36,743 bases of DNA from a virus. Lineage: Duplodnaviria > Caudoviricetes. The notes beneath the pieces were generated by a model that was not told where the DNA came from, did no database searches, and saw nothing but the letters and a program-made list of their open reading frames with translations. A program made the translations under genes and the position numbers. The DNA lies in the IMG/VR virus record IMGVR_UViG_3300023214_000296, positions 1 to 36,743 of that record; one strand, given 5' to 3'. Position 1 is the stretch's first letter. The number at the start of each line of letters is the position of its first letter. Of this stretch, positions 74 through 20,801 are shown one piece after another.

Positions 74-125
74 GTGAAACGAATAAACTTGTTAGGGTCG
101 GGGCGGTATAGTCCGCCCGTTCCCT
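74..125 (-). repeat. Intergenic hairpin repeat, copy 1 (diverged)
   Basis: + strand GTGAAACG..AACTTGTTAGGGTCG GGGCGG-TATAGT-CCGCCC GTTCCCT; flank shared with copy 2, stem sequence differs but still pairs. Confidence 0.85.
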
Positions 126-629
126 CTACGCTTGCCCTCGCGCGGCGAGGGCCCGACGAGACTCAATGTAAGCCTCGCCTACGTCCGCCTTATTGGCAAA
201 CGTCGCCAGGGTAAGCTCCCTGGCAATCTCTCGCCCCTTGGCAGGCACCCCTAGGTCTAAAGACCGATTGCGGTCCCCCGTGGGCACCTCGCCTAGGTGC
301 TTCCTAATAGTGCGCGGAACTGTATAGCGCTCCGCGTACAGGTCTCGTTCCGGGGAGTAGGTGCGCGTGCTCCATTCCCCGTGAACTGTAGCGCCCACCA
401 CGGTATAGCCCCGTGAGGCTAGCGCCGCTGCTGCAATCTGAGTGTTTGTGTTGTCGTCAACAAACACAACTCCCGTTTGGGAGTATCGCCCACAAGGCTT
501 CCATACCTTACGGGTAGACCGCTCGGGGTCCCTTGAGAGGAGGAAGATTTCCCCCTCTGCAAAGCGCATGGTACACCACCATTGGTAGGTACCCGCCCCG
601 CATGTTCGAGAGAACGTGAATTGTCTCAT
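126..629 (-). CDS. Hypothetical phage protein, 167 aa
   Basis: ORF with GGAGG SD; bounded by repeat copies 1 and 2. Confidence 0.8.
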   Translation of the reverse strand: MRQFTFSRTCGAGTYQWWCTMRFAEGEIFLLSRDPERSTRKVWKPCGRYSQTGVVFVDDNTNTQIAAAALASRGYTVVGATVHGEWSTRTYSPERDLYAERYTVPRTIRKHLGEVPTGDRNRSLDLGVPAKGREIARELTLATFANKADVGEAYIESRRALAARGQA

Positions 630-1048: not shown

Positions 1049-1148
1049 AGTCAGCGACCCCCCAGAAGCCGCATTCGTCGCACGCCACGTAGAGGAGGCA
1101 ATCTTCCTCCTCGACCCACCCGTCCGCTCCGCATTCCGGGCAGGTCAT
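1047..1148 (-). CDS. 33-aa zinc-ribbon microprotein (not in ORF track)
   Basis: Hand translation MTCPECGADGWVEEEDCLLYVACDECGFWGVAD*; CxxC..CxxC; ATGA overlap with upstream ORF; stop abuts repeat copy 3. Confidence 0.7.
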   Translation of the reverse strand: MTCPECGADGWVEEEDCLLYVACDECGFWGVAD

Positions 1149-1447
1149 ACCTCGACCCACTCGTCCGCTCCCTCGCCGTGGAGGCGAGGATACCAAAGGT
1201 CTGGGTTCTCACCCAGACCCAGGGGCTCGCGCCGCTCCAGCACCGGGGGCGCCTTGCTGGCACGCTCTAGCGCCCGCCACGCCAGGCGGACCCAGCGCCA
1301 GGACTGCTCCCCGCGCTCCTCGGCGTCCCGAGCCCAGCGCAGCGCCAGACGGGCCCCAGCGCTGGCAGACGGAGCCAGGTGGTAGTTTGACTCCAAAGCC
1401 CGGAGGCGCCGCGCCGTACGGTTGATTAGCGACTCGTTCTCACTCAT
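1145..1447 (-). CDS. Hypothetical Arg/Ala-rich protein, 100 aa
   Basis: Start moved to ATG 1447, preceded by CACAAACACTGGAGGT, the same 16-mer found before the 629 start. Confidence 0.75.
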   Translation of the reverse strand: MSENESLINRTARRLRALESNYHLAPSASAGARLALRWARDAEERGEQSWRWVRLAWRALERASKAPPVLERREPLGLGENPDLWYPRLHGEGADEWVEV

Positions 1448-1526
1448 GAGACCTCCAGTGTTTGTGAGTGATTGTAAAGTACTTATCTCCATAGGACGAC
1501 TAGGTTTAGCTCCCTGCTATGGTGCA

Positions 1527-1552
1527 AAGTTACCACCCTAGCCGCCCGTCAA
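1527..1552 (-). promoter_or_regulatory. Possible housekeeping-sigma promoter for leftward ORFs
   Basis: TTGACG-14nt-TAACTT with TGn extended -10; spacer is shorter than canonical. Confidence 0.35.
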
Positions 1553-1619
1553 ACCTCACGTCCGCCTTACAGCCCCTATGCAGCCCCTACGGTCCTCCAT
1601 ACCGTATCCTCCCGTCCTT

Positions 1620-1931
1620 ACGTCCCAGCGCAGACTACGGGCGGGGCTGGGTTCCCCCTCGCGGGTAGGCTCCTCAGCGCACGTGAGACGAATTGTCAAG
1701 GACCCAATTTAGGCATGTTCCGTGGCGCTCAGGCCGGATTGCCCTTCAGGGTGAGCCCGCCTACCCGCGCCCCGGCTGGCACAGTCTGTCCGTCAGTGAG
1801 ACAACCCAATCCCCGCCCTTCGTTGGGGCCATGAGCCTACTCTCACTCGCTAGAACAGCGAGCCGCTGGGGCCGCGCTTGGGGCCCGGCGCCGCGCTAGG
1901 GGGTTGTCTCTCCCCCGCCCGCTGGCGCCAC
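1620..1931 (-). ncRNA. Candidate ~310-nt structured RNA with closing stem, two domains and a pseudoknot
   Basis: Pairings 1925-1920/1630-1625, 1919-1913/1646-1640, 1910-1901/1807-1798 (10 bp), 1769-1759/1670-1660 (11 bp), pseudoknot 1788-1780/1639-1631; begins at predicted sigma54 TSS. Confidence 0.6.
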
Positions 1932-1940
1932 CCTACCTAT

Positions 1941-1957
1941 AGCAAGGCCGGTGCCAA
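1941..1957 (-). promoter_or_regulatory. Sigma54 (RpoN) -24/-12 promoter
   Basis: Minus strand TTGGCAC-CGGCC-TTGCT matches TGGCAC-N5-TTGCW; intergenic; predicted +1 about 1930. Confidence 0.7.
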
Positions 1958-2266
1958 GCCATAAGTCTAGTAGTGGTGGTCATGACGCGCTGCGCATGGC
2001 GCCGGCTGGCGCCGTTGGGCGGGTCACAATCGCTCACCCCCCCGCCCCGGGACCCCGCCCCCTGGGGTTATTGAAGTTATGAGCGCTCGTAAGTCCTTAC
2101 GCCACGTGGGGGCCCCAACACACCATCTCAACCCCTCCCATTAACGTTCTACCTCAACCCCCATTACAGCCCCCCTTGAGTTAATTTCGTTTTACCGCAA
2201 CTTTCCCGCCTAGTCCCCCCCATCTCGTATCATTTTAATCCCATTTAATTCCCTTGGTTTATGAAC

Positions 2267-2294
2267 TTTACAGATATCTCCCAACTGATATAAT
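2267..2294 (+). promoter_or_regulatory. Sigma70-type promoter for rightward transcription
   Basis: TTTACA-16nt-TATAAT with TGn extension. Confidence 0.65.
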
Positions 2295-2699: not shown

Positions 2700-5492
2700 A
2701 TGTATTCCTATGATGATGTAATTGCGGCTACAATTGATTATTTTAATGGAGATACGCTAGCCGCTGGTGTTTGGGTTGATAAGTATGCACTAAAAGATTC
2801 ATCTGGGAACTTTTATGAATTAGCGCCGACAGATATGCATGAGCGACTCACAAAGGAGTTTGCACGTATCGAGGCTCGCTATCCACACCCACGTGGGCGT
2901 GAGGCAATTTTTGAGGCGCTTAAAAATTTCCAAAGAATAGTGCCGCAAGGTTCGCCCATGGCAGCCGTTGGAAATTATCTGAGGGCTCTGAGTGCTTCGA
3001 ACTGCGTCGTAGTTGAATCTCCACACGATTCAATAGGTGGGATTTTTCGCACAGCCACACAATTGGCCCAACTATATAAGCGCAGGGCTGGTGTCGGCGT
3101 AGATGTTTCAACCCTACGCCCAAATGGCTTTGAGGTTCAGAATGCAGCGCGCACAACAACCGGACCAGTTAGTTTTTGTGACCTATATAGCTATGTGACC
3201 AGGCTAATAGGGCAGGATGGGCGGCGCGGCGCATTAATGCTCACAATGGACGTGCACCACCCCGATATCGAAGAGTTTGCCACAATGAAAGCAGACCTAA
3301 AAAAAGTTACGGGGGCAAATGTATCAGTCCGCCTATCAGACGAATTCCTTGAGGCCGTCGAGGCCGATGAGGAATATGAGCAGCGTTGGCCCTGTGAGGG
3401 CGCTGCGAGATTTAAGCGCAAAGTTTCCGCAAAAAAGGTCTGGGATACTATCGTTGAATATGCAACAAAAACCGCGGAACCTGGCTTGATTTTTTGGGAC
3501 CGCATGACATCACGACTTCCTGCTCATTCCTATCCAGAATTCCGCTCTACTAGTACAAATCCGTGTCAGCCAGGCTGGGCAACCGTATTGACGCCAGATG
3601 GAATTAGAATGCTTTCCCAAGTGGATACTGGCGATGTTATTTGGTCGGGGAAAGATTGGACTAAGATAATTTCGAAATGGTATACCGGCCGTAAAGAAAT
3701 TTTTCAATACAAAACTGCTTCTGGGGTATTTATTGGAACAAATACACACAGGGTGTTGCAAAATGGCAAAAAAATTCAAGCTAAGGATGCAACCCATATC
3801 GATACAAACACTGGATGGGTAGAAAAAATAGTAAGCGTAGAGTCATTAGGCGAAGAGGATGTCTTTGACATTATGGTGGACCACCCAGACCACACATATT
3901 GGACTGGTGGCCTTCTTGTCTCAAACTGTTCTGAGATTTGTTTGAGTCCAAATGATTCATGTAGACTACTATCAATTAATCTTACTGGCTATGTGCTTAA
4001 TCCATTCACAAGCGCCGCCACATTTGATATGGAGGGATTTCTGCACGATGTAGCACTTGGTGTGCGTCTCGCAGACGACCTTGTTGATATTGAAATTGAA
4101 CTCATCGACAGGATTCTAGAAAAGGTTGAGGACCCACTAGAGCGCGAACTATGGGGTAAGTTGCAAGCCGCAGGGCGCAACGGTCGTCGTGTTGGTCTAG
4201 GAACTCACGGACTTGGCGATATGCTGGCGCAGCTAAATATCAAATACGACAGCCAAGAGGCTCTCGATTTTTGTGACAGACTATATGAGTTACTAAGAAA
4301 TGAAGCCTACAGGACGTCAATAGTACTTGCAAAGGAACGCGGCCCATTTCCAGCTTTCAATTGGGCAACCGAGTGTGAAAACGAATATATCCTCGACCTT
4401 CCAGACGACATTAGGGATGGCCTAAAAAAGTATGGGCGCCGCAATATTGCTTTGCTAACCCAAGCCCCAACTGGCTCCATTAGTCTATTATCCAAGGGCG
4501 GGCGCAGTTTCGCGCGTCATAACATTTCAAGCGGCGTTGAGCCGCTATATAAACTTTCCTATTTGCGTTGGAGGAAAGGTAATCCCGGTGACCATGGGTT
4601 TAGGGTCGATAGAGTTGATGACTTGGGTGATTCATGGATGAAGTATAAGGTTTACCACAACAACATTCTTAACTGGGCTCAAATAACTGGTGGCGACCCA
4701 AATAGTCCACCTGATGTGTTTGTTGAGTCTGGAGATATTAACTGGCAATTTAGAGTAGAATTACAAGGCGTTGAACAAAAATATATTGACCACTCAATTT
4801 CTAGCACGATTAATTTGCCAAAAGACACAAGTCCAGAAACCGTAGGTGGAATTTATATGCATGCATGGAAGAGCGGCCTCAAGGGCGTAACCGTGTATGT
4901 TGACGGCTCTAGGGATGGTGTTCTAACGACAGAACAAAGCGATTCTGGCCGCCCTGGGGTAATCACACGAATAATGGCACCACAGCGCCCTAGGGCACTA
5001 CCTTGTGATATCCACAGGAGTAGTGTCAAGGGTCGCAAGTGGATTAGTCTTGTTGGTCTATTAAACGGAGAACCATATGAGATGTTTGGCGGCCATTCTT
5101 CATCCCTCAATCTTCCTATGAAGCATAAAACCGGAATGATTGTTAGGCGCTCGAAGGGCAAGTACGCTTTAGTATTGTCAGATGGCTCTGCGATTGAAGA
5201 CCTTGCTGGCCATTTCTGTTACGCAGCAGACGGAGACCAAATAGGGTGGATTACGAGATTGGTTTCTACATCTCTTCGACATGGCACGCCTATTGAATTT
5301 TTGGTTGAGCAGCTAAATAAAGAAGGGAACGTGACGGCGCTAAATAAAGTTCTTGCGAGAGTTTTAAAGAAATACCTCAAAGAGGGACAAAAAGTCTTGA
5401 CAAAAAAATCCTGTATTAAGTGCAACTCTACAAATTTCACCTATCAGGAAGGATGTCCACGCTGTAACGATTGTGGGTGGACTAAGTGTTGA
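2700..5492 (+). CDS. nrdJ: Class II (AdoCbl-dependent) ribonucleotide reductase, intein-containing
   Basis: SNC, GRRGALM, TGANVSV, EPG, TNPC..CSE, APTGS, SISSTINLP, GLKGVTVY motifs; C-terminal TSCPD-like region and Cys zinc ribbon. Confidence 0.93.
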   Translation: MYSYDDVIAATIDYFNGDTLAAGVWVDKYALKDSSGNFYELAPTDMHERLTKEFARIEARYPHPRGREAIFEALKNFQRIVPQGSPMAAVGNYLRALSASNCVVVESPHDSIGGIFRTATQLAQLYKRRAGVGVDVSTLRPNGFEVQNAARTTTGPVSFCDLYSYVTRLIGQDGRRGALMLTMDVHHPDIEEFATMKADLKKVTGANVSVRLSDEFLEAVEADEEYEQRWPCEGAARFKRKVSAKKVWDTIVEYATKTAEPGLIFWDRMTSRLPAHSYPEFRSTSTNPCQPGWATVLTPDGIRMLSQVDTGDVIWSGKDWTKIISKWYTGRKEIFQYKTASGVFIGTNTHRVLQNGKKIQAKDATHIDTNTGWVEKIVSVESLGEEDVFDIMVDHPDHTYWTGGLLVSNCSEICLSPNDSCRLLSINLTGYVLNPFTSAATFDMEGFLHDVALGVRLADDLVDIEIELIDRILEKVEDPLERELWGKLQAAGRNGRRVGLGTHGLGDMLAQLNIKYDSQEALDFCDRLYELLRNEAYRTSIVLAKERGPFPAFNWATECENEYILDLPDDIRDGLKKYGRRNIALLTQAPTGSISLLSKGGRSFARHNISSGVEPLYKLSYLRWRKGNPGDHGFRVDRVDDLGDSWMKYKVYHNNILNWAQITGGDPNSPPDVFVESGDINWQFRVELQGVEQKYIDHSISSTINLPKDTSPETVGGIYMHAWKSGLKGVTVYVDGSRDGVLTTEQSDSGRPGVITRIMAPQRPRALPCDIHRSSVKGRKWISLVGLLNGEPYEMFGGHSSSLNLPMKHKTGMIVRRSKGKYALVLSDGSAIEDLAGHFCYAADGDQIGWITRLVSTSLRHGTPIEFLVEQLNKEGNVTALNKVLARVLKKYLKEGQKVLTKKSCIKCNSTNFTYQEGCPRCNDCGWTKC
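3564..3926 (+). mobile_element. 121-aa mini-intein in NrdJ active-site loop
   Basis: CQPGWATVLTPDG start, TxxH block B (GTNTH), VFDIMV block F, ends ..LVSN before Cys+1 of NP-CSE; no endonuclease domain. Confidence 0.88.
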
Positions 5493-9295: not shown

Positions 9296-9764
9296 GATGA
9301 CAATAATTTGCGACACAAGGGAACAAGTTGGCAAGGGTTGGAAATTCCGCGCTTCTGCTAACTGCAGGGGTGTAATTAGAGAAAAATTAGATGTTGGGGA
9401 TTATAGTCTTAAGGGATATGAACATCTTGTTTGTATAGAGCGAAAGACACTTGGTGACCTATATGGTACGCTCGGAAATCAAACAAACTATAATAGATTT
9501 CTCAAGGAGTGGGAGCGCGCGAAAGACCACCCAATCAAGATGCTTATAATTGAAGCTACGCTTGCTGAGGTAAATAAGGGATACCCATGGTCGCGCGTTC
9601 ACCCAAATAATATTCATGGAAAATTAATATCTCTTCAGGTAAAGCATAACGTCCATGTTGTTTTCGCTGGAAGAAAAGATAAGGCTCGCGCTTATACAAG
9701 GAAGCTATTAAGTAAACTTTGGAATTATTGTGAGGATGGAGTAATCTGTGCCGCCAAAGCTTGA
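9288..9764 (+). CDS. ERCC4-domain (XPF/Mus81-like) nuclease
   Basis: ICDTREQ, LDVGDYS and IERKTLGD (ERKxxxD) motifs. Confidence 0.85.
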   Translation: MSKMTIICDTREQVGKGWKFRASANCRGVIREKLDVGDYSLKGYEHLVCIERKTLGDLYGTLGNQTNYNRFLKEWERAKDHPIKMLIIEATLAEVNKGYPWSRVHPNNIHGKLISLQVKHNVHVVFAGRKDKARAYTRKLLSKLWNYCEDGVICAAKA

Positions 9765-12687
9765 GCGCCTCCCAATTGTCTATAATTTAGAAAAGGGAGA
9801 AAGGCTAATTAATGCATTCAATGAGCGAGAGGGTAAATTTGATGACCCTTACTTTGAATTTATTGATATCTGCTTAAACAACTTAACATGGGCCGTATAT
9901 CATATTTTGATGTGGCAAGGTAGACCGCTTCAATTAGCCCCATTCCAAAGTGTTATCTTAGAAACGCTGTGGAATAAAACATTCCCAATTCTCCTTGCAT
10001 CCCGCGGTGCCTCAAAGACGTTTATGCTTGCGGTTTACGCCGTGATGCGAGCGATATTGACGCCAGGCAGCAAGGTGGTTATTGTTGCTGCTTCTTTTCG
10101 TCAGTCAAAACTTGTGTTTGAGTATATCGAACAGTTATTTAATTATTCTCCCCTACTTAGAGCATGTTGTCCGACTGACAAAATTGAAAAACCAGCCGAC
10201 AAGGTTCAGCTAAAAATTGGAACTAGCGTAATTACTGCTTTACCGCTTGGCAATGGTGAAAAAATTCGTGGTATTCGTGCTTGCGTATCTGCTGACACCC
10301 TCATCGACACCGAAAGCGGACTGATTCCAGCCAAGGAAATCGTGGAGTCAAATAGAGACTGGTCCATTTATACATCTGAGGGATTTGAGACACCCAAAAC
10401 ATACTGTAGAACAAATCTTACTGATGTGCATGAAGTTGAAACGATATGTGGGTTTAAGATTCAATTTAGCGACATTCATCGAATTTATACAGACGATGGA
10501 TGGAAGGATATTGATACTCTAACAACCGACGATAGGTTGTGTTTGCATTCATCTAGAACATTTCCAGTTAGCGAAGTTTTGGTCGATAACGAAAAGACCC
10601 CAAATGAGCGACGTTCGGGCTACAATTTGCCAGAAACCGTAAACCAAGACGTGGCACGTTTGCTTGGCTATCTGATATCAGAAGGTAGTACCTCTAATCG
10701 CAACGGAACTATTTCATTTACAAATACCGATGCTGATATTATAAGGGATTATTGCGCGACATTTGAGAGGGTTTTTAATGTTAAGCCAGCGATATACCAG
10801 AAGGATTCGCATGTAGATAAGCGCGGGTGGGATTGTAAAAAATCCTATGAGGCAAAAATTTGCCGATTGGGCATTAGGAAATACCTCGAAAGAATAGGTT
10901 TAGATTACCTAAAGGCGCAAGACAAAACTATTCCGTGGTGTATTTTGCGTTCCACAAAGCCAGTCGTTACGGAATTCCTTAAGACACTATTTGAAAGTAA
11001 TGGAACTGCGGTGCTCTATAGGGATAGTAGACGAGATACAGATGAATTTTACATTGCATATTATTCTGCATCAAATAAGCTTTGTGCTCAATTACAAGTG
11101 CTTCTATTAAAATATGGCCTTATTGGTTCGCTTTCTCGGCGAAGCAAGTGCAATGTTAATTACCATTTGCGTCTTACGAAGAAATATGCTGCCGCTTTCG
11201 CCAAGGATGTCGGTTTTATTTCCTCTAGAAAGACTAGTATTTGCAAGGAGGCATTGGTAAAATTTAAGCCAAAATACTATGATGGCAGAAGTGTAAAAAT
11301 TAAAAAAATTAAAAAGTGTGTTCGTAAAGATATTCTTTATGATGTTTGTATGCCAGAAACGCATAAGTTTGTTGGAAATGGAATTGTAAATCATAATACC
11401 CACATCCTTGTTGATGAGTATGCTTCAATTAATCCAGAAGTCTTCCAGGTTGTTGTTAGGGGTTTTGCGTCTGTAAGCGCTAACCCAATTGAGGCCGCCA
11501 ATCAAATTCATAGGGAGCGTCAGGCAATTAAAGATGGCACAATGACGGTCAACCAAATGTCAAAGAGACAAGGAAACCAAATTGTCTATAGTGGAACTGC
11601 AAACTTCCAATTTAACCATTTTCATAAACTTTACCAAACACACAAGGGCATTATAGATAATCGCATTGTGGGTGACTCAGAAGAGGTAAACAAAAGACTA
11701 AACCTTAACGAGGACGACGCCCTATCTGAGGGCTTTTTGGATTATAGAGATTATGCAATTGTTCAGATTCCATATCAGGGGCTACCAGAAGGGTTTATGG
11801 ATGAAAAGCAAATTGCACAAGCTAAGGTTACTATGCCTAAATCACTTTTTCAAATGGAATATGAGTGTAAGTTTCCAACGGATTCAGACGGGTTCTATAA
11901 GAAAAGCTTGATTAATAGCGCAACGCCAGGCCATTCAGTTTGCGGTGGTGCCGCATTTCCAGTCGAAGTTAAAGGCCAAAGTGGCTTTGAATATGTTATG
12001 GGTGTTGACCCAGCTAGAAAAACGGATAACTTTGCTATTTCCGTATTGAAGCTACTTAAAGATGGGACGTATAAGAATGTATATTGCTATAGTATGAAGG
12101 GCAAGAAGTGGCCTGTCGCAACCCGCAAGGTTAGGGAAATTCTTGAGAAATTCAACATCGTGCGCATAGCTATGGATGCTGGCGGTGGTGGCACCACAGT
12201 AGAGGACCTTCTTCAAGATGATGCATTTTTACAGCCAGGAGAAAAGAAAATTTGGCGCTTCGATGATGACGAACACAAAATGTATGACGGTATTCATATT
12301 TTAGACATGGTTGACTTTGCGCCCAAATGGATTCGCGATGCAAACTATGACCTTGCAGCAGATATTGAACATCGCCGCTTGCTGTTTCCATATAGAACGC
12401 CTGAGGTTTCACCGGGTGATTTTGATGAGTTTGAAGCTGAGAAAGATGACACGTGGGACGAAATAGATGAACAGATTAAAGAAACCTGCATGATTACTGT
12501 TACAGCGACGAAAACTGGTATTCAACACTTCGACATCCCCGAGCTTCCTGCATCTCAGCAAAGCACACTAAAAACTTATCAGCGCAAGGACCGCTATTCC
12601 GCCCTATTACTTGCAAGTTATGCTGCTAGGTCATACCTCCAACAGGGGCAACGCACTATCCAACCAAGCGTAGGTGGATGGATTTAG
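9748..12687 (+). CDS. terL: Terminase large subunit, intein-containing
   Basis: Walker A ASRGASKT, Walker B ILVDE, RNase H-like GVDPA / MDAGGGG / KDRYSA. Confidence 0.92.
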   Translation: MPPKLERLPIVYNLEKGERLINAFNEREGKFDDPYFEFIDICLNNLTWAVYHILMWQGRPLQLAPFQSVILETLWNKTFPILLASRGASKTFMLAVYAVMRAILTPGSKVVIVAASFRQSKLVFEYIEQLFNYSPLLRACCPTDKIEKPADKVQLKIGTSVITALPLGNGEKIRGIRACVSADTLIDTESGLIPAKEIVESNRDWSIYTSEGFETPKTYCRTNLTDVHEVETICGFKIQFSDIHRIYTDDGWKDIDTLTTDDRLCLHSSRTFPVSEVLVDNEKTPNERRSGYNLPETVNQDVARLLGYLISEGSTSNRNGTISFTNTDADIIRDYCATFERVFNVKPAIYQKDSHVDKRGWDCKKSYEAKICRLGIRKYLERIGLDYLKAQDKTIPWCILRSTKPVVTEFLKTLFESNGTAVLYRDSRRDTDEFYIAYYSASNKLCAQLQVLLLKYGLIGSLSRRSKCNVNYHLRLTKKYAAAFAKDVGFISSRKTSICKEALVKFKPKYYDGRSVKIKKIKKCVRKDILYDVCMPETHKFVGNGIVNHNTHILVDEYASINPEVFQVVVRGFASVSANPIEAANQIHRERQAIKDGTMTVNQMSKRQGNQIVYSGTANFQFNHFHKLYQTHKGIIDNRIVGDSEEVNKRLNLNEDDALSEGFLDYRDYAIVQIPYQGLPEGFMDEKQIAQAKVTMPKSLFQMEYECKFPTDSDGFYKKSLINSATPGHSVCGGAAFPVEVKGQSGFEYVMGVDPARKTDNFAISVLKLLKDGTYKNVYCYSMKGKKWPVATRKVREILEKFNIVRIAMDAGGGGTTVEDLLQDDAFLQPGEKKIWRFDDDEHKMYDGIHILDMVDFAPKWIRDANYDLAADIEHRRLLFPYRTPEVSPGDFDEFEAEKDDTWDEIDEQIKETCMITVTATKTGIQHFDIPELPASQQSTLKTYQRKDRYSALLLASYAARSYLQQGQRTIQPSVGGWI
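10282..11397 (+). mobile_element. 372-aa intein with LAGLIDADG homing endonuclease domain
   Basis: Starts CVSADTLI, ends GIVNHN before Thr+1, just before Walker B; motifs LLGYLISEG and LKTLFESNG. Confidence 0.92.
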
Positions 12688-19110: not shown

Positions 19111-19150
19111 CAAACCACAATGGGCGTCAATCTCTGGCGCCCTTGGTTTG
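19111..19150 (+). terminator. Hairpin after capsid gene
   Basis: CAAACCA..GGGCGTCA-ATCTC-TGGCGCCC..TGGTTTG. Confidence 0.55.
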
Positions 19151-19154
19151 TACA

Positions 19155-19183
19155 TTGACGCCGTCACGAATCCTTACTATAAT
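19155..19183 (+). promoter_or_regulatory. Near-consensus sigma70 promoter
   Basis: TTGACG-17nt-TATAAT, 25 nt before ATG 19209. Confidence 0.8.
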
Positions 19184-19208
19184 CAGTCATAGACACCAAG
19201 GAGGGGTG

Positions 19209-20801
19209 ATGGAAACACAAGAGATGTATGAATATTATATTAGCAATAATGTGTCGCTAGCAGATGTTGGTAAAAAATACAACTTGAGCACCTCGGCAAT
19301 TAGAAAGAGGTTTTTAAAAGCTGGGTTAAAGTGTAAGGGGCAAAATTCAACACGCCAGAAGAAAATAGATGAAAAGGAACTTAAGAGGCTTTATTGCGAT
19401 GAGTTACTATCCCAAACGGAAATAGCTAAGCGCCTTGGCGTTGCTCATGGAACCATCAATAATAGACTAAGGAAATTGGGACTGAGTCGTTCTGTAGCTG
19501 AATCTCGCTCATTAAAAGAAGATAACTACAACCTTTGGGATGTTGGCGCCATGAAGGAGGCAAAAAAACTCATAGAGACGCATGGTTCAATCAAAAGGGC
19601 CGCCGAAAAACTTGGGGTCTCAGAGAATTCGCTTCAGCTTTTAAATAAAGCAAAGATAAATGTTCCAGTTCAGACTTGGAGTAAATATGATGAGGATAAG
19701 GTGAAAGGACTTCTAGAGGAACACAAAGATTATGATGTTGTGTCGAGGCTTACCAATATAGACAAAAGTAGTATTGTAAGAAAAAATCACTACTCTTGGA
19801 GAGTAGACTTATCTGCAAATTGCAACCTTTTTGGTATTCGAACAAAGGGTAAGGATGGGTTGGAGTATCAAAGCAAAAATGAAGCGAGTTTTGCCGACAG
19901 GCTATTTGATGCGGGTGTGGAATATGAAGTGCAGGCTAGAGTATGTGACGATAGGCTTTGGCGTTGTGATTTTAAAATAAACGACACATGGATTGAATTA
20001 GATGGGCTTGGCGACTTCAGAAGTCAAACCGGCGATGCAAACTATACAAATAACGACAAGATAAATTACTATAGGAAAAACAACTTTAATTATATAATTG
20101 TAAATAGCGCCAATAGGGAAGAGGTATTAGAAAGATTAGGTGCGCCAAAGGTAATCAAGTGGAGCAAAGACAACATCGAGGTCCGCGAAGTTGAATATGG
20201 CGTGGCTAATAAATTCTGTGCGCGCCACCATTATTTGGGCGGCTCTCCAAATGGAGACAGTGTCCGTCTTGGTTTTTATCAAAACGACAAACTTCTTGGC
20301 GTGGCAACATTTGGCAAGGGCGCTAATCGCTATTTGATTAGCTCCGTTTGTGGCCAAATTAAATATTCTCCTATTAGCACAAAAACACCAAGTGGGTATG
20401 AGTTAACTCGTATATGTATTTTGCCAGCGGTAGATAAAAATTTCGCATCGCACATTATAGGGCGCTCTATAAAATACCTGAGGGCGCTCGGTTGTGAAAT
20501 AGTTGTGACGTTTGCAGACCCAACCTACAAACACGTAGGGAAGATTTATCAAGCCGCTAATTTTATTTACACCGGAATGTCGCGGCCAGATTATTGCTAT
20601 GAGCTTCCAGATGGGTCGATTGTCCACAAAAGCAAATTCCGCTCTAGGAGTAGTTTTACGGAGCGCGACTTGGTTAATCTCGCTGGCGCCAAAAGAATTA
20701 TCCTAGAGGGCAAACATCGATACGTTTACGTCGTAAGTAAAAAATATAAAAAACAAATACTAAACAGCTTAAAGCACTCACAAAAGGATTACCCATGTTA
20801 G
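19209..20801 (+). CDS. Multi-HTH + PD-(D/E)xK nuclease + Mom-like (GNAT) DNA-modification fusion
   Basis: HTH repeats (SLADVGKKYNLS, SQTEIAKRLGVAHGTI); SKNE..CDFKI..IELDG; HHYLG, ELTRICI, FADPTYKHVGKIYQAANFIYTG. Confidence 0.75.
   Translation: METQEMYEYYISNNVSLADVGKKYNLSTSAIRKRFLKAGLKCKGQNSTRQKKIDEKELKRLYCDELLSQTEIAKRLGVAHGTINNRLRKLGLSRSVAESRSLKEDNYNLWDVGAMKEAKKLIETHGSIKRAAEKLGVSENSLQLLNKAKINVPVQTWSKYDEDKVKGLLEEHKDYDVVSRLTNIDKSSIVRKNHYSWRVDLSANCNLFGIRTKGKDGLEYQSKNEASFADRLFDAGVEYEVQARVCDDRLWRCDFKINDTWIELDGLGDFRSQTGDANYTNNDKINYYRKNNFNYIIVNSANREEVLERLGAPKVIKWSKDNIEVREVEYGVANKFCARHHYLGGSPNGDSVRLGFYQNDKLLGVATFGKGANRYLISSVCGQIKYSPISTKTPSGYELTRICILPAVDKNFASHIIGRSIKYLRALGCEIVVTFADPTYKHVGKIYQAANFIYTGMSRPDYCYELPDGSIVHKSKFRSRSSFTERDLVNLAGAKRIILEGKHRYVYVVSKKYKKQILNSLKHSQKDYPC

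What the first reader, a model, noticed from the sequence alone, without database searches (positions are those of the whole stretch)
1620..1931. Large pseudoknotted non-coding RNA candidate starting at a sigma54 TSS
Seen: on the minus strand the 5' end (CCAGCG, GGCGGGG) pairs with 1630-1625 and 1646-1640. This leaves a 9-nt bulge CGUAGUCUG (1639-1631) that pairs fully with CAGACUGUG (1788-1780), using two G-U pairs that work only on this strand. Two domains are closed by perfect 10-bp and 11-bp stems and contain sub-hairpins; a GGG-GGAA-CCC GNRA hairpin precedes the closing stem. The closing stem starts within a few nt of the predicted sigma54 +1. Inference: a discrete phage RNA I cannot assign to a known family. 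The order P1-P2-domain-pseudoknot-domain-GNRA-P2'-pseudoknot'-P1' resembles RNase P RNA topology, and GGACAGACUGUGC loosely echoes GGAAAGUCCGGGC, but the conserved RNase P nucleotides are missing.
Basis: partly seen in the sequence, partly recalled or inferred. Interest (0 to 1): 0.8.

Follow-up and report, generated by a model that had tools for sequence, protein, structure and literature searches.

The report
Phage early RNA carrying rRNA boxA
This is not RNase P but the front of a long untranslated stretch that opens a large phage's predicted early genes; it follows a sigma54-type promoter motif and carries a copy of the boxA-like signal found in bacterial ribosomal RNA operons, so the phage likely borrows the host's "keep transcribing" machinery, and related phages keep that signal while replacing the folded RNA around it.

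Summary
The stems, the 9-nt pseudoknot pairing and the sigma54 motif are present as described. RNase P is rejected.

The contig belongs to an uncultured family of ~170-kb phages. Seven syntenic relatives have a 270-1370-nt non-coding stretch at the same place. All 8 share one sense-strand motif, here at 1704-1691, which matches rRNA-operon boxA; 6 of 8 also carry a T-loop hairpin. A promoter-plus-boxA scan found the same layout in 5 unrelated phages.

Best reading: a sigma54-type early transcript that likely loads host NusB-S10 for rRNA-style antitermination; the folded body is lineage-specific and its role is open. There is no expression or covariation evidence. The scan noted boxA-led phage RNA operons before on other DNA; the sigma54 link was not among the notes I saw.

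The parts
1942..1956 (-). sigma54-type promoter motif (TGGCAC-N5-TTGC); predicted start of transcription near 1931
   Evidence: Only exact match in the window; promoter and start region conserved in G002 and G006; start site inferred from consensus spacing
1447..1931 (-). Predicted ~485-nt untranslated 5' part of the early transcript (longest sense ORF 47 codons)
   Evidence: fold z -2.22 for 1931-1445
1887..1929 (-).
   Evidence: p 0.85-1.0 in prefix folds; predicted 5' hairpins also in G002, G006, G004, G007
1798..1910 (-).
   Evidence: Present; p 0.001; forcing it costs 3.9 kcal/mol
1780..1788 (-). 5' strand of the candidate pseudoknot
   Evidence: Pairs fully with 1639-1631; compatible with both folds; not found in relatives
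1660..1769 (-). Domain 2, closed by a perfect 11-bp stem; encloses the boxA-like motif
   Evidence: p 0.90-0.94 from 20 to 70 C
1691..1704 (-). boxA-like motif GGTCCTTGACAATT, predicted NusB-S10 site; partly in a hairpin loop
   Evidence: Ranks 1 of 73,458 positions with a matrix from rRNA spacer sites; counterpart in 8 of 8 family leaders
1624..1646 (-).
1456..1619 (-). Non-coding tail with further predicted hairpins, up to the ribosome-binding site at 1456-1452
   Evidence: Sense z -2.0, antisense -0.81
1145..1447 (-). First downstream ORF, 100 aa, orphan; first of several small minus-strand ORFs
   Evidence: No relative but itself; no Pfam or PHROG hit for the longer 115-aa frame; no usable Atlas feature hit

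Best explanation
The stretch is the folded front part of a predicted ~485-nt untranslated RNA that opens the phage's likely early operon from a sigma54-type promoter, and its boxA-like motif likely loads the host NusB-S10 proteins so that RNA polymerase would become termination-resistant, as on rRNA operons. Shown: promoter motif, non-coding character, stems, boxA-like motif, the same layout in 7 relatives, and no sigma54, activator, NusB or NusG gene in the 5 relatives searched for each. Inferred: (1) host sigma54 holoenzyme, with a host activator, starts near 1931; (2) the RNA folds as it is made, 5' hairpin first; (3) boxA at about +228 recruits NusB-S10, then NusA, NusG and perhaps SuhB and S4; (4) the modified polymerase reads through the ribosome-free RNA into the small early genes, and may chaperone the long-range pairings; (5) the T-loop hairpins of relatives are likely processing sites. 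The folded body, pseudoknot included, is lineage-specific cargo and not a conserved catalytic core.
For: boxA-like core on the sense strand in 8 of 8 family leaders, 42-378 nt from the predicted start. A matrix from 7 rRNA spacer sites scores each leader 11.8-20.4 bits on the sense strand (0-2 of 300 shuffles as high) and at most 6.1 on the antisense strand. G018 and G007 were found after the motif was defined. The strict 14-mer occurs once per record in 4 of 5 records, 3 times in this leader and once in a second promoter-led non-coding stretch of G019. It is absent within 300 nt of the 6 other sigma54-like matches in the G002 and G019 early regions. The same form lies in 7 of 10 Verrucomicrobiota 16S-23S spacers and fits published consensus motifs (PMC13753749, PMC5725501). 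The only significant match between the window's leader and any relative's covers this motif. Relatives fold better on the sense strand in 5 of 5. The promoter-plus-boxA scan gave 8 loci: 2 known relatives, 1 inside a long reading frame, 5 upstream leaders of other phages, 4 of which show CTTTGACAA where the pattern allowed other letters.
Against: The window's motif is degenerate: 8 of 12 to the E. coli consensus, with C in place of the first U of the UUU run. Part of it is paired in a predicted hairpin. It lies ~230 nt from the start, further than in rRNA leaders. The rRNA training sites were picked with a core pattern taken from the phage leaders, so the matrix is partly circular; 3 of 10 spacers and all 10 16S leader stretches lacked that core. 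A plain mismatch scan with the E. coli and B. subtilis consensus did not list the window's site. The scan had no control scan. boxA can also promote Rho termination (PMC12360218, PMC5725501). The G001 leader lacks the -24 GG. TG-C-TATAGG could be a sigma70 extended -10 (own knowledge). The host is unknown. The G019 leader folds no better than shuffles over 580 nt (z -0.19; -2.32 over 633 nt).
Confidence: 0.6

Rival explanations
1. The ~310-nt module is cut out as a discrete RNA that acts in trans early in infection, as a decoy or sponge for a host defence or RNA-binding protein. boxA only serves to make it. This can coexist with the best explanation.
For: Closed 5'-3' layout rare in shuffles. 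Relatives devote up to 1.2-1.4 kb to non-coding, strongly folding RNA (z -6.56 and -7.08), far more than boxA needs. T-loop hairpins in 6 of 8 leaders, three followed by a CCA-like end. Fast divergence fits an arms race (inference).
Against: No conserved sequence or topology among relatives beyond G002/G006. No T-loop hairpin in the window's leader, and no terminator found after 1620. No target identified.
Confidence: 0.2
2. The leader is a two-state switch: the 3' strand 1646-1624 pairs either with the 5' end or with internal repeats, and this controls boxA exposure or read-through.
For: Two exclusive folds within 3.9 kcal/mol; both closing helices have a second partner; the pseudoknot fits either fold.
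Against: The boxA-bearing domain 2 is the same in both folds. G/C runs give alternative registers easily. No equivalent pair of folds was sought or seen in relatives.
Confidence: 0.1
3. The stems are DNA-level inverted repeats or chance pairings of a G+C-rich boundary region (terminus, origin or packaging signal), with no RNA function.
For: Minus-strand z only -1.06, plus strand better. The region lies at the A+T-rich/G+C-rich boundary. In G002 and G006 the long stems are built from a GAGAC-type motif repeated dozens of times on both strands.
Against: Strand-specific boxA-like motif in 8 of 8; sense-strand folding bias in 5 of 5 relatives; conserved promoter.
Confidence: 0.08
4. A highly diverged RNase P-like ribozyme.
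For: Order of helices loosely similar (sequence inspection).
Against: No Rfam match at E up to 10; RF00010 absent from 5 of 5 records while controls rang; invariant blocks match at chance; no linker between P2' and the pseudoknot strand; topology absent in relatives.
Confidence: 0.02

Closest known systems
Bacterial rRNA-operon antitermination signal (boxB-boxA-boxC; NusB-S10, NusA, NusG, SuhB, S4)
   Same: 5' hairpin then a boxA-like motif ahead of long untranslated structured RNA; boxA alone is sufficient in E. coli (PMC13753749, PMC8632103, passages read); same motif form as in Verrucomicrobiota spacers.
   Different: Phage-encoded; sigma54-type promoter; degenerate motif 230 nt from the start and inside a domain; no boxC identified; cargo is not rRNA; protein genes follow.
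Lambdoid nut sites (boxA-boxB with N protein), also in mEp phages (PMC11893012, passages read)
   Same: boxA in the leader of an early phage operon, using host Nus factors.
   Different: No boxB directly after boxA; no N-like protein identified, and the first ORF differs among relatives; leader of hundreds of nt instead of about 40.
Large phage non-coding RNAs near tRNAs (ROOL, GOLLD; phage K lnc001/lnc002, PMC9241854, passages read)
   Same: Large, structured, phage-borne; in relatives next to tRNA-like elements; function open.
   Different: No Rfam match; no conserved fold across the family; led by sigma54 motif and boxA.
Bacterial RNase P RNA (RF00010)
   Same: Length about 310 nt; closing helix, two domains, pseudoknot near the 3' end.
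   Different: No conserved blocks, no model match, no conserved topology.

Membership tests
RNase P RNA | Match to RNase P covariance models | tested here: not met
RNase P RNA | Invariant blocks around P4 | tested here: not met
   Five blocks from 5 real RNase P RNAs are matched as well by 11-98% of shuffles; no nhmmer hit at E 100
RNase P RNA | Core topology conserved among homologs | tested here: not met
   0 of 7 comparison RNAs (6 relatives, 1 unrelated phage) under the strict descriptor; 1 relaxed hit in G004; G007 not included
RNase P RNA | Pre-tRNA cleavage | not testable with these tools
   Needs a bench assay
rrn-type boxA antitermination leader | boxA-like linear motif on the transcribed strand | tested here: met
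   8 of 8 leaders; window copy degenerate
rrn-type boxA antitermination leader | Promoter-proximal hairpin before boxA | tested here: inconclusive
   5' hairpin predicted, adjacent to boxA in G002 and G006 but ~185 nt away in the window
rrn-type boxA antitermination leader | Untranslated RNA around boxA | tested here: met
   Longest sense ORF 39-92 codons in leaders of 272-1370 nt
rrn-type boxA antitermination leader | boxC and RNase III processing stem | tested here: inconclusive
   Long stems open right after boxA in G001 and G002; not in the window; boxC not searched for
rrn-type boxA antitermination leader | NusB-S10 binding and read-through | not testable with these tools
   Needs binding and reporter assays
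Lambdoid nut/N system | boxB after boxA and a phage N protein | tested here: inconclusive
   First ORF is an orphan; N proteins diverge too fast to exclude
sigma54 promoter | GG-N10-GC (-24/-12) motif | tested here: met
   Exact in the window; present before 6 of 7 relatives' leaders; 5 forward, 0 reverse, 0 control matches in G019
sigma54 promoter | Dependence on RpoN and an enhancer-binding activator | not testable with these tools
   No phage sigma54 gene and no activator over cut-off in 5 records; host unknown
tmRNA, tRNA, 6S, ROOL, GOLLD, OLE | Model or ARAGORN match | tested here: not met

The most novel reading that the evidence does not exclude
A family of ~170-kb uncultured phages makes, as one of its first transcripts, a large lineage-specific structured RNA (pseudoknotted here, tRNA-capped in relatives) from a host sigma54 promoter, folded by the hijacked rRNA transcription complex. 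The RNA acts in trans as a fast-evolving counter-defence decoy, and 'sigma54 promoter plus boxA' is a general early-expression module shared by unrelated phages.
Probability: 0.25. Interest if true: 0.8.

Novelty: new variant of a known kind. Interest (0 to 1): 0.5.

Why it matters
If true, phages can use the host's rRNA antitermination complex for early transcription with boxA and no recognised N protein, and they couple it to sigma54-type promoters, which normally need an activator. The short leaders in five unrelated phages make this easy to test in a reporter. It also gives a search handle (promoter plus boxA) for large phage RNAs that homology searches miss because their bodies diverge too fast.

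Tried and rejected
No Rfam family for the window or for the relatives' leaders. No tRNA or tmRNA in the window. No DNA match in GenBank phages and no capsid match there.

No close homolog of the RNA body was found. An exact 3' motif gave 0 loci, the promoter-plus-5'-end pattern gave 0 in metagenomes, and nhmmer over 303 loci gave none. A pseudoknot-strand pattern gave 71 loci, which I treated as chance: no match extended beyond ~27 nt, and I read only one such place in full (L080, coding). Covariation therefore could not be tested; the five-leader alignment is not homologous beyond the promoter and boxA.

RNR-linked loci were not syntenic. The 23 metagenome terminase loci mostly stop short of the leader or showed no matching promoter. 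No RNA holder was listed among sequencing runs; the contigs laid showed no diverged copy of 1620-1931.

The 9-mer CCCTGAAGG shared with G002 and G006 was dropped as chance-level. A CsrA-sponge idea was dropped because ANGGA counts are similar in all leaders. An N-like role for the 100-aa ORF is unsupported. The host could not be assigned. One paper on CRISPR-array boxA was not held; PMC9025141 was irrelevant.

Full report
Context. The window is a whole 36.7-kb virus record, about 24% complete. It encodes a ribonucleotide reductase, a terminase with an intein and a major capsid protein on the plus strand. Bases 1-2000 are 60-65% G+C against 36-51% beyond 2500 and hold small minus-strand ORFs, which I infer to be early genes. 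The capsid protein found 18 loci in IMG/VR, 16 of them at 54-74% identity, several on records of 165-182 kb. No cultured phage matched.

Observation. The combination is rare in shuffles: 0.5% have two perfect stems of 10 bp or more, 1 of 2000 has them side by side and enclosed, and 0 of 2000 add the pseudoknot (descriptor written after the fact). The minus strand has z -1.06 and the plus strand -2.26. Only the 11-bp stem is probable (0.94). A 5' hairpin at 1929-1887 dominates every prefix, and the 3' strand prefers partners at 1818-1811 and 1870-1864. The fold containing the 10-bp stem is only 3.9 kcal/mol worse, and the pseudoknot strands can be left free in either fold, so the pseudoknot is possible but unproven.

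RNase P. No Rfam family matched. RF00010 rang in 0 of 5 family records and in 11 of 14 controls. Invariant blocks from five real RNase P RNAs matched the candidate no better than shuffles. Rejected.

Relatives. A DNA search of 17 records hit two (G002, G006) at E below 1e-5, over the promoter and first bases only. Synteny of the genes beside the region and reading of the sequences located the equivalent stretch in G001, G004, G019, G018 and G007. I did not identify one in the fetched parts of G008 and G010-G015, nor in the metagenome loci. The 8 leaders are 272-1370 nt, with longest sense ORFs of 39-92 codons. Among them only G002 and G006 align at length. The 5 tested on both strands fold better on the sense strand (z -2.3 to -9.5); G007 gives -6.56; G019 is weak (-0.19 over 580 nt). 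T-loop hairpins occur in 6 of 8 leaders, not in the window or G018.

The conserved element. Every leader has the core TT-N-M-CAA-Y-T on the sense strand (alignment); in the window it is GGTCCTTGACAATT at 1704-1691. Published boxA consensus motifs are UGCUCUUUAACA (E. coli) and AUGAUCUUUGAAA (B. subtilis) (PMC13753749, passages) and GYTCTTTAANA (PMC5725501, passages). To see natural forms elsewhere I fetched 16S loci from 41 genomes of the phylum of a Verrucomicrobiales assembly; 13 had a match. Of 10 full-length loci examined, 7 carry G-T/A-T-C/G-TTTGACAATT in the 16S-23S spacer. I judged their position, shortly before the 23S start, by eye from recalled 23S features. A matrix from these 7 sites ranks the window's site first of 73,458 positions and scores all 8 leaders high on the sense strand only. 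The sites were picked with a phage-derived core, so this is partly circular, and a plain mismatch scan with the two published motifs did not list the window's site. The strict 14-mer is unique in each of 4 of 5 records. Six other sigma54-like matches in G002 and G019 lack it within 300 nt.

Beyond the family. A scan of IMG/VR for the sigma54 motif followed 40-70 nt later by a boxA-like motif gave 8 loci: G002, G006, one coding match, and five leaders in records of 32-75 kb with no capsid relative (one search had no positive control). Four lead directly to protein genes and one to a long stretch that looks non-coding. No control scan was possible.

Mechanism. In E. coli boxA loads NusB-S10 and is enough to build a complex that blocks Rho and helps fold rRNA (PMC13753749, PMC8632103, PMC6614801; passages). 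boxA can also promote termination in other contexts (PMC12360218). Five relatives showed no sigma54, activator, NusB or NusG gene over cut-off (the two sets of five differ by two records, and most are incomplete), so host factors would be used. I infer sigma54-type initiation near 1931, Nus loading at boxA, and read-through of the untranslated RNA into the early genes. Nothing here shows transcription, binding or read-through. The role of the folded body is open; a trans-acting decoy and a two-state switch are the main rivals.

Literature and earlier notes. Nine searches listed no paper on a sigma54-promoter, boxA-led phage RNA; the library lacks most subscription journals, and I read no supplements. 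Closest in print are lambdoid-type nut sites (PMC11893012, passages) and phage K long RNAs (PMC9241854, passages); ROOL and GOLLD I saw only in a search listing (PMC12286853). I noted the boxA idea before the scan's notes showed eight similar boxA-led phage RNA operons in other genomes. These are unchecked leads, and one was marked as partly fallen. Look-ups by this sequence, capsid or place gave nothing.

Verdict. A real feature and a new variant of a known kind: an rRNA-type antitermination signal in a phage early non-coding leader. Interest 0.5.

Noticed in passing
window 92-128, 666-702, 1012-1048; 635-650, 1451-1466: A 37-nt hairpin repeat (two identical copies, one 76%) and a 16-nt repeat holding the ribosome-binding site punctuate the small minus-strand ORFs. 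L230 has analogous repeated hairpins between its small genes. Possible processing or recombination cassettes.
   Followed up: partly
L213:12062, 13121; L215:12507, 12833, 13530, 13885: T-loop hairpins recur between early genes of G002 and G006; possible tRNA-like processing marks.
   Followed up: no
L027:1750-1815, L028:1728-1790, L214:11865-11925, L275:12160-12210: tRNA-shaped elements with an abnormal anticodon arm, missed by ARAGORN and Rfam, end the leaders of relatives; the acceptor stems of G002 and G006 differ while staying paired.
   Followed up: partly
L213:10700-14900, L215:11200-15000, L212:14900-16900: A GAGACG-type motif is repeated dozens of times on both strands in the early regions of G001, G002 and G006; likely a DNA-binding site.
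   Followed up: no
L296:2001-3000: An unrelated 75-kb phage has a sigma54 motif, hairpin and boxA followed by a long stretch that looks non-coding, with no Rfam match.
   Followed up: partly
L273:7330-7700: G019 has a second promoter-hairpin-boxA-led stretch that looks non-coding.
   Followed up: no
L275:7580-7640: Type-P5 twister ribozyme above the gathering score in G007's early region.
   Followed up: no
window 2267-2294: Strong sigma70-type promoter (11 of 12, with TG) on the plus strand, divergent from the leader.
   Followed up: no
window 9748-12687; 2700-5492; 19143-20801: Terminase large subunit with a LAGLIDADG intein; ribonucleotide reductase with an apparent insert near residues 290-415 (by eye); Mom-family DNA modification protein with an N-terminal HTH.
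   Followed up: no
window 2048-2052: A contig of run X1 differs from the window at 2048 and lacks one base at 2052; upstream of the promoter, possibly an assembly difference.
   Followed up: no
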